Shown here: piece after piece, positions 21,001 through 24,000 of the stretch
Layout of the letters: every line of letters begins with the position of its first letter
Numbering within the stretch: position 1 is the stretch's first letter
Virus record (IMG/VR): IMGVR_UViG_2737471845_000005
Direction: 5' to 3' (one strand)
Source: a virus
Lineage: Duplodnaviria > Heunggongvirae > Uroviricota > Caudoviricetes
DNA: 30,396 nucleotides
Program-made: the position numbers

Positions 21001-24000
21001 TGAAAAATCACTGGATCAGGCCGTTCAGAATGGACTGATTGCTCCGGGCGTATGGAACGGTGGCGACCTGGGTCAGTTGTCATCAGGTGACACGCTGCCC
21101 AAAGGTTATTACGTATACGCCCAGCCACTGGATGAACAGGCACAATCAGAACGTGAAGCCCGTAAGGCTCCGGTGATTCAGGCTGCAATAAAACTTGCAG
21201 GCGCGGTTCATTACGCTGACGTACAGATTAACGTTGTTCGCTAAGGGGAAGTGAATGTCTACCTATTCTTTTATGGATGTCACTGCGACGCTGACCGGGC
21301 CGACCGGTTCGATTGACCTCGGGTACGGTTCGGCAAGTTCTGAAGAGGGGATTGTGGTTGCGATGGGCGGTCCTAAAAACACCATGACCATCGGTGCTGA
21401 TGGCGAAGTGATGCACAGTCTCCATGCAGATAAAAGCGGGACGATTACCGTTAACCTTCTGAAGACATCACCGACAAATAAAAAATTGTCGCTGGCGTAT
21501 AACGCACAGAGCCAGTCTTCTGCCACATGGGGGAATAACGTTATCGTGATCCGCAACAAGGTCAGCGGCGACATCATCACGGCACGCAGTGTTGCGTTCC
21601 AGAAACAACCGGATAACGCCAACGCTAAAACCGGTAATACGATGCCGTGGGTGTTTGACTGCGGCAAGATTGACCAGGTTCTCGGGGAGTTTTAATACAT
21701 GGAGTTCGAAATCAAAGGCGTGAAATATCGCGTGGCAAAACTCAGCGTTTTTGACCAACTGAAAGTGACCCGCAAACTTCTGCCGGTGCTGGCAGGAATG
21801 ATGTCAGATTTCGGGAGCATTCGCTCCCGTTTGCCTGCTGATGGCAAAATCGACACCGTGAAATTCGAGCAGTTAAAACCGGTGTTTGAAACCATGCTCC
21901 CGCGTATCGCTGAGGAACTGTCTTCCCTGACCGAAGATGACACCAGTGCGATTATTCATCCCTGTCTTGCGGTGGTATCGCGGCGTCATATGGACGGATG
22001 GGTTCCGGTATTTACCCAGGGCGAACTGATGTTTGATGATATTGACTTGCTGGTCATGCTGCAGCTGGTGGCGCGGGTGGTCGCCGATTCGCTGGGAAAT
22101 TTTTTGCCTACACCCCTTACCAGCACGACGCAGAGCCTGCAACAGGGCTGACGTTTAACAGCCTGCCGGACGGGCTGTCCTACCTTCTCAATCCGGTTGA
22201 CGCCGGGTTAATTCCTTATACAGCACTTAAAGATGGCTCTGTCGATTTGTACGATATTGCTCTTTTGAATGACCATCTGGCGGTAAAAGCGGATAACCAG
22301 CGGCGCATTGAGAAATGGAGAGAGGATAATGAACGCTGAAACTATTAAAGATTTCCTCGTCTCGCTTGGCTTCAGTGTGGATGATGCAGGAGCGAAAAAG
22401 TTCGGTTCTGTCCTCGCCGGTACAACTGCAAATGTCATCAAAATGGGGCTGGCCGTTGAAGGAGCCGCGCTGTCCGTGGTGGCCTTCACGGCTAAGATCG
22501 CCTCCGGTCTGGATAATCTTTACTGGGCGTCACAGCGCACTGGAGCGACAGTCCAGGGAATTCAGTCTATTGGCTATGCGGTTTCGCAGGTTGGCGGCAG
22601 CGTGGACGCTGCGCGATCTTCTCTGGAAAGCCTCTCCCGGTTTATTCGTAATAATCCCGGTGCAGAGGGATTTCTGAATCGCCTGGGCGTACAGACCCGT
22701 GATGCCAGCGGTAACATGCGTGACATGGCCGCTATCTTTACGGGCGTTGGACAGAAACTCAGCAGCATGCCGTATTACCGGGCTAACCAGTATGCGCAGA
22801 TGCTGGGCATTGACGAAAATACCCTGATGGCTATGCGTCGCGGAGTGGGGCAGTTCAGCGCTCAGTATTCAGAAATGGTGAAAGCGATCGGATTTAATGC
22901 CGATCAGGCTGCCTTATCGTCAAACCGGTTTATGACCTCGCTGAAATCGCTCGGTGAAATGGCCGGGATGGCGCGGGACAAAATCGGATCGAATCTTGCG
23001 GACGGACTGGCGGGGCAGATTGATAACCTGCGCAAAAAGATAATTGAAAATTTTCCCAAAATTGAAGTCACCATCACAAAGGTCATAAAAGGGATCCTCT
23101 GGCTGGGTGAGATAGTCGGGCGGGTTGCATTTCGGATAGTCGATGGTGTCGGAGATATCATCGAGTGGTGGGGAAAACTGGATGCCGAAACGAAAACCCT
23201 GATAGAGGTTATCGGCGGTCTGGTTGTCGCCATGCGGATACTTAACTCTACTTTCTGGATGTCACCTATAGGGCTGATTACCGGTCTGATCGTGGCTCTC
23301 GGTCTCTTGTGGGAAGACTACAAAACATGGAAAGAAGGCGGTAACAGTCTTATCGACTGGGAAAAATGGCAACCGGCAATAGATAAAGCGAAGGATGCGA
23401 TCACCTGGCTTCGTGATCACCTTCTGGAACTAAAAGATGGTGTTGGCGGCTGGCAAAATGCACTGGAAATCCTTGGTACATTCATCGCGGGTGTCTGGGT
23501 ATCCAGGGTTCTGGGGGCTTTCGGGAAAATATCAGGTTTGCCGGTCCCGCCGTGGTTAAAAGGCTGGATGGCTTATGCTGCGTATTTGTACTCTGATCGC
23601 GAAAATATTGGTGCCAGTGCGAAGTCATCCTGGGATTACACGAAACAAAATATTGGAGATTCATTGCGCTGGCTTGGCATTGATACCGATTTTGGTCGTA
23701 ATCCTCATACCGTAAAAGGCGCAAATATTCAGTCAGATATTCCAGGTGCTGAGCCGGAACAATATGCACAGGCTACGAAACGAGGAGAACGGAATAACAA
23801 TCCGGGAAACCTTAATTTTGCTGGTCAGGCAGGGGCTTCTCTTGAACGCCCGGGCGGGCGATTTGCCAGATTTGAAACTGCCTTTGATGGATTACGGGCT
23901 CTTGCTCGTCAGTTAATGCTGTACGCCGGACGGGGAATAAACAGTGTGGAGAAAATTATCTCTACCTGGGCACCTGCGTCTGATAATAACAACACAACAG

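What the first reader, a model, noticed from the sequence alone, without database searches (positions are those of the whole stretch)
21699..22339. Tail assembly chaperone with predicted programmed -1 frameshift upstream of the tape measure gene
A slippery run 'A AAT TTT TTG' lies about 45 nt before the chaperone stop, and the -1 frame is open from there to a TGA overlapping the tape measure start, adding roughly 78 residues. This matches the conserved chaperone frameshift of tailed phages and indicates the unannotated gap 22152-22328 is coding.
Basis: partly seen in the sequence, partly recalled or inferred. Interest (0 to 1): 0.4.

Follow-up and report, generated by a model that had tools for sequence, protein, structure and literature searches.

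The report
Phage tail chaperone programmed -1 frameshift
This E. coli prophage very probably makes two versions of its tail assembly chaperone from one start codon by a programmed ribosome slip, as lambda and P2 do, so the finding is real but ordinary; its main use is to correct database records that call the extension a separate gene of unknown function.

Summary
ORF 21699-22151 is a 150-aa tail assembly chaperone (Pfam Phage_TAC_15, E 4e-31). It lies between the tail tube gene and the tape measure gene of a myovirus-type E. coli prophage.

The tract CT G GGA AAT TTT TTG (22094-22106) holds three overlapping, in-phase X_XXY_YYZ heptamers. The -1 frame is open from 22046 to TGA 22337-22339, which overlaps the tape measure ATG at 22329. 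A shift gives a 213-aa fusion (135 + 78 residues).

The extension is real coding sequence:
- It matches Pfam DUF6889 (E 1e-20).
- Substitutions against two relatives fall mostly on -1-frame third positions (5/2/25 and 5/2/24).
- It has no ATG/GTG/TTG upstream of its conserved residues.

In 221 of 223 related loci the T part is in the -1 frame relative to G. Both exceptions are indels elsewhere. The slip-site codons are synonymously invariant where almost all other conserved codons vary.

I found no 3' stimulatory structure. A strong Shine-Dalgarno-like GGGTGGTC 11-14 nt upstream may be a clade-specific stimulator.

Homologues in phages Mulock and Magia already carry this frameshift annotation, whereas RefSeq lists a stand-alone "DUF6889 family protein" starting at CTG. 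Verdict: a new member of a known kind, of low interest. No protein-level evidence exists.

The parts
21699..22151 (+). Gene G: tail assembly chaperone, zero-frame product of 150 aa (ATG 21699, TGA 22149-22151), with a GGGAG ribosome-binding site 8 nt upstream
   Evidence: Pfam PF21822 Phage_TAC_15 E 4.3e-31; phrog_1688 'tail assembly chaperone' E 3e-65
22075..22082 (+). GGGTGGTC: Shine-Dalgarno-like segment, a candidate 5' stimulator (inferred, not shown). It lies 11 nt before G_GGA_AAT and 14 nt before A_AAT_TTT.
   Evidence: It is the strongest anti-SD complement in the whole G gene (-12.8 kcal/mol, rank 1 of 442). Codons CGG GTG are synonymously invariant in 9 homologues. It is top-ranked in 50 of 51 distinct enteric-clade sequences but not in other clades. 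The reported spacing range for -1 stimulators is 9-14 nt (PMC5009743).
22094..22106 (+). Slippery tract G GGA AAT TTT TTG: three overlapping in-phase X_XXY_YYZ heptamers. A_AAT_TTT (22097-22103) is the most probable shift site.
   Evidence: The tract is invariant in 87 related loci, and the homologous N_NNT_TTT motif recurs in other clades. H_HH.U_UU.Y is among the most efficient heptamer classes in E. coli (PMC4066793). P2 E/E+E' shifts at TTTTTTG (PMC3091744).
22103..22339 (+). T extension read in the -1 frame after the shift: 78 codons (FAYTPYQHD...WREDNER) plus TGA 22337-22339. The G-T fusion is 213 aa.
   Evidence: The frame is open. Substitutions fall on third positions: 5/2/25 against SEN34 and 5/2/24 against YP3, chi-square p about 4e-7 and 1e-6. 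The only canonical (ATG/GTG/TTG) start in this frame is TTG 22247, giving a 30-aa ORF.
22214..22330 (+). DUF6889 domain within the T extension. In the AlphaFold model the T part (residues ~160-211) forms three helices and is the only confident part.
   Evidence: Pfam PF21829 E 1.2e-20 (residues 40-78 of the 22097-frame translation); phrog_4364 E 2e-23. pLDDT is about 80 for residues 160-211 of the fusion model.
22329..24314 (+). Tape measure protein gene (661 aa) with a C-terminal transglycosylase-like part. Its ATG lies 8 nt before the stop of the -1 frame, and GGAGAGAGG lies upstream.
   Evidence: phrog_2276 'tail length tape measure protein' E 4e-265; phrog_7182/873 at aa ~407-649. The RefSeq homologue starts at the same ATG.
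20099..21695 (+). Context: tail sheath gene (20099-21244, DUF3383) and tail tube gene (21255-21695, KPP10_Orf10/DUF3277) immediately upstream of G
   Evidence: Pfam and PHROG hits

Best explanation
This is the G/GT-type programmed -1 ribosomal frameshift of a phage tail assembly chaperone.

Most ribosomes translate 21699-22151 and release the 150-aa chaperone G. A minority slip back one base on the tract G GGA AAT TTT TTG. The most probable site is A_AAU_UUU (22097-22103): tRNA-Asn re-pairs from AAU to AAA in the P site, and tRNA-Phe re-pairs cognately from UUU to UUU in the A site. These ribosomes continue in the -1 frame through 22103-22336 and stop at TGA 22337-22339, inside the start of the tape measure gene. 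The product is a 213-aa G-T fusion with junction ...SLGNF-FAYTPYQ.... A shift on T_TTT_TTG would instead give ...SLGNFLAYTPYQ....

By analogy with lambda gpG/gpGT, the shared G part should coat the tape measure protein. The C-terminal T part (DUF6889) should recruit the tube protein so that the tube, and then the sheath, polymerise to the measured length. Neither protein should end up in the virion.

Shown here: the sequence anatomy, coding selection on the -1 frame, the lack of an independent canonical (ATG/GTG/TTG) start, nucleotide-level constraint on the slip site, and conservation of the arrangement across distant relatives.

Inferred: that ribosomes actually shift, which heptamer they use, how efficiently, any stimulation by the upstream Shine-Dalgarno-like GGGUGGUC, and the binding partners.
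For: - G is a tail assembly chaperone sited between the tube gene and the tape measure gene.
- The -1 frame is open from 22046 to 22339 and encodes DUF6889 (E 1.2e-20) and phrog_4364.
- Substitutions in the unique T part, by -1-frame codon position, are 5/2/25 against SEN34 and 5/2/24 against YP3 (p about 4e-7 and 1e-6).
- Conserved T residues (SLPDG..., from about 22160) lie upstream of the only canonical start, TTG 22247. Database versions of the 'stand-alone' protein start at assorted CTG codons and are 43-78 aa long.
- tblastn of the conceptual fusion hits 40 phage records, every one as two pieces in two frames covering at least 90% of the query, down to 29% identity.
- Profile mapping puts T in the -1 frame relative to G in 221 of 223 loci. 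Both exceptions are indels elsewhere.
- An in-phase heptamer sits at the homologous Leu-Gly-Asn/Pro-Phe position in about 90% of loci. All others keep T_TTT.
- Slip-site codons are 4/4 synonymously invariant, against 3 of 42 other conserved columns.
- A_AA.U_UU.U belongs to the efficient H_HH.U_UU.Y class in E. coli (PMC4066793). P2 uses TTTTTTG (PMC3091744).
- The homologues in Mulock and Magia are annotated with the same frameshift.
Against: - There is no protein-level evidence (mass spectrometry or western blot) for this prophage or, as far as I found, for any member of the Phage_TAC_15/DUF6889 family.
- No 3' stimulatory structure was found: z = -0.45 and -1.17 for the window; RNAalifold -1.97 kcal/mol with no covariation; no Rfam hit.
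- About 20 related loci have a non-canonical P-site codon (for example GGG CCT TTT, GGT TCT TTT, GGG GAT TTT), so a strict tandem-slip heptamer is not universal.
- G_GGA_AAU and U_UUU_UUG are not among the efficient E. coli motifs.
- The loci are related to one another, so the locus counts overstate the number of independent observations.
Confidence: 0.85

Rival explanations
1. The DUF6889 ORF is an independent small gene, as RefSeq/PGAP and several phage records annotate it. It would be translated from its own, possibly non-canonical, start or by termination-reinitiation at the G stop.
For: RefSeq lists a 54-aa 'DUF6889 family protein' equivalent to window 22175-22339. Many database entries of 43-78 aa exist. 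In the window a CTG overlaps the G stop (C-TGA).
Against: There is no ATG/GTG/TTG before TTG 22247, yet conservation starts right after the slip site (F[FY]xR[TA][PA]Y) and includes SLPDG at about 22160. The annotated starts are CTG codons at different positions in different records. No start is conserved at the G stop: Mulock, GZ7 and yong1 have TTA/ATA/GTA contexts there. An independent gene would not stay in the -1 frame, overlapping the G 3' end, in 221 of 223 loci.
Confidence: 0.05
2. The fusion is made by transcriptional slippage. RNA polymerase would add one U on the T6 run (22100-22105), and standard translation of that mRNA subset would give G-T.
For: A homopolymeric T6 run is present. 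A T7 variant of the DNA (L225) does encode the in-frame fusion, which shows that one extra T gives the right product.
Against: Efficient bacterial transcriptional slippage is described for runs of about 9 A or T (PMC5009743). Relatives with the same two-frame layout have only T4 (Burkholderia C_CCT_TTT A, Acinetobacter A_AAT_TTT A) or no T run at all (Bordetella G_GGA_AAT ACT). All of these still fit tandem tRNA slippage.
Confidence: 0.07
3. There is no recoding. The -1 ORF is a decaying remnant or a chance open frame, and only the 150-aa G protein is made.
For: No experimental product is known. Without a stimulator, most heptamers shift at well below 1% in E. coli reporters.
Against: The -1 frame shows a strong purifying-selection signature and a Pfam domain hit. 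The arrangement is conserved from Enterobacterales to Burkholderia and Acinetobacter. Synonymous sites in the slip tract are constrained.
Confidence: 0.03

Closest known systems
Phage lambda gpG / gpGT (Levin, Hendrix & Casjens 1993; Xu, Hendrix & Duda 2004, 2013, 2014; summarised in PMC5009743)
   Same: The chaperone gene lies directly upstream of the tape measure gene. A -1 shift near its 3' end on a G_GGA_AAx-type heptamer gives a minor fusion with a different C-terminal domain. No RNA structure is required.
   Different: Lambda is a siphovirus and its site is G_GGA_AAG. Here the tail is contractile (DUF3383 sheath, DUF3277 tube), and the tract is G_GGA_AAT extended by TTT TTG. I did not test sequence similarity to gpG or gpT. 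The ratio of products and the binding partners are unknown.
Phage P2 E / E+E' (Christie et al. 2002, as cited in PMC3091744)
   Same: P2 is a myovirus. It makes a -1 shift at TTTTTTG between the tube (FII) and tape measure (T) genes, and no downstream hairpin has been reported.
   Different: It belongs to a different protein family: P2 E is 91 aa and E+E' is 142 aa, against 150 and 213 aa here. Homology to P2 E was not tested. In this family the conserved element is N_NNT_TTT rather than T_TTT_TTG.
Klebsiella phage Mulock CPT_Mulock_014/015 and Burkholderia phage Magia gp16/gp15 (GenBank MN098327, NC_070954)
   Same: These are true homologues (58% and 29% identity to the conceptual fusion). 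They have the same gene order and the same -1 arrangement, and Mulock has the identical GGGAAATTTTTTG tract. Both are already annotated as 'tape measure chaperone frameshift product'.
   Different: Those annotations are predictions too. The Mulock genome announcement does not mention the frameshift. The E. coli prophage copies are not annotated this way.
Pakpunavirus / Vandenendeviridae TAC-N / TAC-NC (phage Adele, PMC12846349)
   Same: The tail module is related (KPP10_Orf10-type tube). The authors propose a -1 frameshift at a conserved poly-T motif (GTTTTT) near the end of the chaperone gene, and the downstream 'hypothetical protein' is reinterpreted as the C-terminal domain.
   Different: These are lytic Pseudomonas phages. 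Direct homology of the chaperones to this one was not tested here.
E. coli dnaX -1 frameshift signal (5' Shine-Dalgarno stimulator)
   Same: A strong anti-SD complement lies 11-14 nt upstream of the shift heptamers, within the 9-14 nt range reported for -1 stimulation.
   Different: dnaX also needs a 3' stem-loop and uses A_AAA_AAG. Here the SD-like element overlaps conserved Arg-Val-Val codons, is restricted to the enteric clade, and is untested.

Membership tests
G/GT-type tail assembly chaperone with conserved -1 frameshift (Xu, Hendrix & Duda 2004 class) | The gene pair lies between the major tail/tube gene and the tape measure gene | tested here: met
   Tube 21255-21695, G 21699-22151, T to 22339, tape measure 22329-24314
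G/GT-type tail assembly chaperone with conserved -1 frameshift (Xu, Hendrix & Duda 2004 class) | A second ORF overlaps the 3' end of the first in the -1 frame and lacks its own start | tested here: met
   The -1 frame is open 22046-22339. The only canonical start is TTG 22247, inside the conserved domain.
G/GT-type tail assembly chaperone with conserved -1 frameshift (Xu, Hendrix & Duda 2004 class) | An in-phase slippery heptamer X_XXY_YYZ lies within the overlap | tested here: met
   Three overlapping heptamers at 22094, 22097 and 22100; background is 12 per 2473 codons
G/GT-type tail assembly chaperone with conserved -1 frameshift (Xu, Hendrix & Duda 2004 class) | The arrangement and the slip site are conserved among diverged homologues | tested here: met
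   40 of 40 phage records hit as two frames. 221 of 223 loci are in the -1 frame. There is a heptamer at the homologous site in about 90% of loci and T_TTT in the rest. The slip site is synonymously invariant.
G/GT-type tail assembly chaperone with conserved -1 frameshift (Xu, Hendrix & Duda 2004 class) | Two proteins sharing an N-terminus are made in a fixed ratio, and both are needed for tail assembly | not testable with these tools
   This needs proteomics and genetics. I found no published data for this family.
G/GT-type tail assembly chaperone with conserved -1 frameshift (Xu, Hendrix & Duda 2004 class) | The G part binds the tape measure protein and the T part binds the tube/major tail protein | not testable with these tools
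   The AlphaFold monomer model was of low confidence (mean pLDDT 49.6; the T part about 80). No PDB relative was found by sequence.
Pfam PF21822 Phage_TAC_15 | Score above the gathering threshold (22 bits) | tested here: met
   108.5 bits, E 4.3e-31, residues 6-138
Pfam PF21829 DUF6889 | Score above the gathering threshold (23.9 bits) | tested here: met
   73.4 bits, E 1.2e-20 on the -1-frame translation
dnaX/IS-type 5' Shine-Dalgarno stimulated -1 frameshift | An anti-SD complement lies 9-14 nt upstream of the shift site | tested here: met
   GGGUGGUC 22075-22082, -12.8 kcal/mol, rank 1 of 442 in the gene, spacing 11 and 14 nt (range from PMC5009743)
dnaX/IS-type 5' Shine-Dalgarno stimulated -1 frameshift | The stimulator is conserved wherever the shift site is conserved | tested here: not met
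   It is top-ranked in 50 of 51 enteric-clade sequences but in only 15 of 112 sequences of other clades. It is also confounded by the conserved Arg-Val-Val codons.
-1 frameshift signals with a 3' stem-loop or pseudoknot | A stable, conserved structure lies 5-9 nt downstream of the heptamer | tested here: not met
   z-scores -0.45 and -1.17; consensus -1.97 kcal/mol with 0 compensatory pairs; no Rfam match

The most novel reading that the evidence does not exclude
In the enterobacterial clade the G/GT signal may be a composite. It would combine a 13-nt tract of three overlapping heptamers with a dnaX-like 5' Shine-Dalgarno stimulator (GGGUGGUC, 11-14 nt upstream) and no 3' structure. Such a signal could set a higher or tunable G:GT ratio and could yield two junction isoforms (FF and FL). 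DUF6889 would then be the tube- or sheath-recruiting T domain of the DUF3383/DUF3277 class of contractile tails.
Probability: 0.25. Interest if true: 0.35.

Novelty: new member of a known kind. Interest (0 to 1): 0.22.

Why it matters
The main value is for annotation. This prophage type occurs in 338 of 5426 complete E. coli genomes. In RefSeq the T extension is listed as a stand-alone 'DUF6889 family protein' with a CTG start, and elsewhere it is mislabelled 'NTP pyrophosphohydrolase'. Recognising DUF6889 as the frameshift-encoded C-terminal domain of Phage_TAC_15 chaperones gives a Pfam family of unknown function a role. It also corrects many gene models and adds a well-conserved natural A_AAU_UUU / C_CCU_UUU shift site for recoding predictors. 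It does not change how tail assembly or frameshifting is understood.

Tried and rejected
- 3' stimulatory RNA. Single-sequence folds of 22107-22200 and 22107-22160 were no better than shuffles. RNAalifold on 9 homologues gave essentially no structure and no covariation. Rfam at E <= 1 gave nothing. Rejected.
- T-run rarity. T6 runs are as common as chance predicts, so the run itself is not evidence.
- Natural in-frame G-T fusions in diverged lineages. None was found. The only fused protein (P0001) is a 99%-identical T7 variant from one SRA run. The search with the T part alone returned only short stand-alone ORF calls.
- Structure. AlphaFold2 of the fusion with a 59-row alignment was poor (mean pLDDT 49.6) except for the T helices, so I ran no fold search. 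A sequence search of the PDB was empty, and NCBIfam has no model for G or T.
- Family-wide Shine-Dalgarno stimulator. It is only clade-specific, so it is kept as a hypothesis.
- First scan of viral contigs. It returned only near-identical loci, so I used distant homologues as queries instead.
- Mulock genome announcement. It says nothing about the frameshift.
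Full report
**Observation**

ORF 21699-22151 (ATG to TGA, 150 aa) ends ...ADSLGNFLPTPLTSTTQSLQQG*. Its zero-frame codons at 22092-22106 are CTG GGA AAT TTT TTG.

The -1 frame has no stop from 22046 to TGA 22337-22339. The +1 frame closes at 22158. The tape measure ATG is at 22329, so the -1 stop lies 8 nt inside that gene. A shift after Phe135 adds 78 residues (FAYTPYQHDAEPATGL...IEKWREDNER), giving 213 aa in all.

G_GGA_AAT (22094), A_AAT_TTT (22097) and T_TTT_TTG (22100) are all X_XXY_YYZ heptamers in the correct phase.

**Is it more than chance?**

- T6 runs are not rare: 44 in the window against 34.6 +/- 7.1 expected.
- In-phase heptamers are rare. There are 12 in 2473 codons of nine neighbouring structural genes, so 0.17 would be expected in the 35-codon overlap, and three were found (P about 7e-4).
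- In a codon alignment of nine diverged enteric-type homologues, the four site codons Gly-Asn-Phe-Leu never vary synonymously. Only 3 of the other 42 columns with a conserved, degenerate amino acid are codon-invariant (Fisher p = 2e-4). Selection is therefore acting on the nucleotides of the tract.

**What the genes are**

The window is the late region of a myovirus-type E. coli prophage. In order it carries:
- holin, endolysin and spanin genes (9367-10573);
- terminase genes (10951-13205);
- the portal gene, head genes and major capsid protein gene (13205-17994);
- neck genes;
- sheath (20099-21244, DUF3383) and tube (21255-21695, KPP10_Orf10/DUF3277);
- the ORF in question;
- the tape measure gene (22329-24314, phrog_2276, E 4e-265) and baseplate genes.

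ORF 21699-22151 is a tail assembly chaperone (Pfam Phage_TAC_15, E 4.3e-31; phrog_1688, E 3e-65). The -1 translation matches Pfam DUF6889 (E 1.2e-20) and phrog_4364.

The same DNA occurs in 338 of 5426 complete E. coli genomes. It is 98% identical in induced phages vB_EcoM-606R2 and relatives, 84% in Yersinia phage YP3 and 76% in Salmonella phage SEN34.

**The 'gap' is coding in the -1 frame and has no start of its own**

- Between the G stop and the -1 stop, substitutions fall 5/2/25 on -1-frame codon positions 1/2/3 against SEN34. Against YP3 the split is 5/2/24 (chi-square p about 4e-7 and 1e-6).
- The only ATG/GTG/TTG in this frame is TTG 22247, giving a 30-aa ORF. Yet conservation starts directly after the slip tract (F[FY]xR[TA][PA]Y) and includes the motif SLPDG... 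at about 22160.
- Databases hold this ORF as a stand-alone protein of 43-78 aa, named 'DUF6889 family protein' or 'NTP pyrophosphohydrolase'. Its first codons correspond to CTG at different places. RefSeq's copy equals window 22175-22339.

This is the pattern expected from gene callers forced to find a start that does not exist.

**Comparative evidence**

tblastn of the conceptual fusion against 50,697 phage records found 40 records. Every one matched as two pieces in two frames covering at least 90% of the query, down to 29% identity. The hosts include Klebsiella, Hafnia, Citrobacter, Providencia, Edwardsiella, Bordetella, Ralstonia, Acinetobacter and Burkholderia.

In 19 of these loci examined by script, the -1 frame is always open from inside the G 3' end to the tape measure start, 55-75 codons past the G stop.

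I added IMG/VR loci found with distant queries. Profile HMMs then placed T in the -1 frame relative to G in 221 of 223 loci. The two exceptions are indels elsewhere:
- L043 has a 1-nt deletion in a G run downstream of the site.
- L203 has an internal deletion in G, and its local G-tail/T relation is still -1.

These loci are related to one another, so the count is not 223 independent events. It does span at least six host clades with different site sequences.

**The site across the family**

| Clade | Site | Loci |
|---|---|---|
| Enteric | G GGA AAT TTT TTG | 87 |
| Acinetobacter type | G GGA AAT TTT ATT | 26 |
| Burkholderia and relatives | C CCT TTT | about 75 |
| Bordetella | G GGA AAT ACT | 8 |
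| Ralstonia | G GGT TTT TTC | 1 |
| Providencia | T TTT TTT | 1 |

About 20 loci have a non-repeating P-site codon (GGG CCT TTT, GGT TCT TTT, GGG GAT TTT) but keep T_TTT. The common denominator is therefore N_NNT_TTT with Phe UUU in the A site, which corresponds to A_AAT_TTT (22097-22103) in the window.

Sharma et al. 2014 (PMC4066793) found that in E. coli the efficient motifs allow cognate A-site re-pairing. H_HH.U_UU.Y is among the best heptamers and U_UU.Y among the best tetramers. G_GG.A_AA.U and U_UU.U_UU.G are not in that set. I therefore take A_AAU_UUU as the main site (inference). P2's experimentally defined site is TTTTTTG (PMC3091744), so the third heptamer cannot be dismissed. The first two heptamers give junction ...GNFFAY..., and the third gives ...GNFLAY....

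**Stimulators**

I found no 3' structure:
- the folds are not better than shuffles (z = -0.45 and -1.17);
- the alignment fold gives -1.97 kcal/mol with no compensatory pairs;
- Rfam gives nothing.

This matches lambda and P2. Upstream, GGGUGGUC (22075-22082) is the strongest complement to the 16S 3' tail in the whole G gene (-12.8 kcal/mol, rank 1 of 442). It lies 11 and 14 nt from the first two heptamers, within the 9-14 nt range reported for -1 stimulation (PMC5009743). Its CGG GTG codons are synonymously invariant, and it is top-ranked in 50 of 51 distinct enteric-clade sequences.

It is weak or absent in other clades (15 of 112), and it encodes conserved Arg-Val-Val. I keep it as a hypothesis at about 0.25-0.3.

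**Rivals**

- Independent translation of DUF6889. This fails on the missing start, the conservation upstream of every candidate start, and the fixed frame relation.
- Transcriptional slippage on T6. This is possible in principle. A T7 DNA variant in one SRA assembly encodes exactly the predicted fusion with junction LGNFFAYTPYQ. However, relatives with T4 or no T run keep the arrangement, and efficient bacterial slippage is described for runs of about 9.
- A non-functional remnant. This is excluded by the selection signature.

**Mechanism and comparison with known systems**

By analogy with lambda gpG/gpGT (PMC5009743), G and the G part of the fusion should coat the tape measure protein. The T part should recruit the tube protein. 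Both should leave before the tail is finished. None of this was tested here.

The AlphaFold model was poor (mean pLDDT 49.6) except for three helices in the T part at about 80. No PDB relative exists by sequence.

The closest knowns are:
- lambda G/GT and P2 E/E+E' (same logic, different families);
- true homologues in Klebsiella phage Mulock and Burkholderia phage Magia, already annotated with a joined 'tape measure chaperone frameshift product';
- the Pakpunavirus TAC-N/TAC-NC proposal (PMC12846349).

**Verdict**

It is a new, unannotated member of a very well known kind. Its value is mainly corrective: DUF6889 is the frameshift-encoded T domain of Phage_TAC_15 chaperones. Interest is low, about 0.2.

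Noticed in passing
window 22175-22339 (equivalent to L001 2421-2585): RefSeq/PGAP annotates the T extension as a stand-alone 54-aa 'DUF6889 family protein' (WP_071819661.1) whose first codon is CTG. Other records name the same ORF 'NTP pyrophosphohydrolase' and use different CTG starts (P0122, P0125). This looks like systematic mis-annotation of a frameshift extension.
   Followed up: yes
L225 1900-1909 (Logan SRR23924998); proteins P0001, P0003, P0065: Public assemblies contain T-run length variants. T7 gives an in-frame 213-aa G-T fusion (P0001, junction LGNFFAYTPYQ). Variants whose protein continues in the +1 frame (LGNFCLHPLP...), as a one-T-shorter (T5) run would give, were not checked at the DNA level. 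I did not resolve whether these are real mutations or homopolymer sequencing errors.
   Followed up: partly
window 22075-22082: GGGTGGTC is the strongest anti-Shine-Dalgarno complement in the whole chaperone gene. It lies 11-14 nt upstream of the slip heptamers and is conserved, with synonymous invariance, in the enteric clade only.
   Followed up: partly
L043 (~1965-1975) and L203 (~620-760): These are the only two of 223 loci that break the G/-1 T frame relation. L043 has a 1-nt deletion in a GGG run downstream of the slip site, and L203 has an internal deletion in G. They are probably decaying prophages or assembly errors.
   Followed up: yes
L094 (Edwardsiella phage ZHS), L096 (Burkholderia phage E192a) and about 20 IMG/VR loci: The homologous site lacks a canonical P-site repeat (GGG GAT TTT, GGT TCT TTT, GGG CCT TTT) but keeps T_TTT. 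This suggests A-site-only (tetramer) slippage, or tolerance of a P-site mismatch, in these lineages.
   Followed up: partly
window 26273-26998 and 27064-27816: Two ORFs of about 240-250 aa, lying between the baseplate hub and wedge genes, have no PHROG match at E <= 1e-5.
   Followed up: no
window 10392-10736 versus 10181-10573: A 114-aa ORF overlaps the 3' half of the Rz-like spanin gene in another frame and runs past its end. It is probably the outer-membrane spanin in an overlapped arrangement.
   Followed up: no
window 22329-24314 (aa ~407-649): The tape measure protein carries a C-terminal transglycosylase/endolysin-like region (phrog_873, phrog_7182). RefSeq consequently names the whole protein 'lytic transglycosylase' rather than tape measure.
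   Followed up: no
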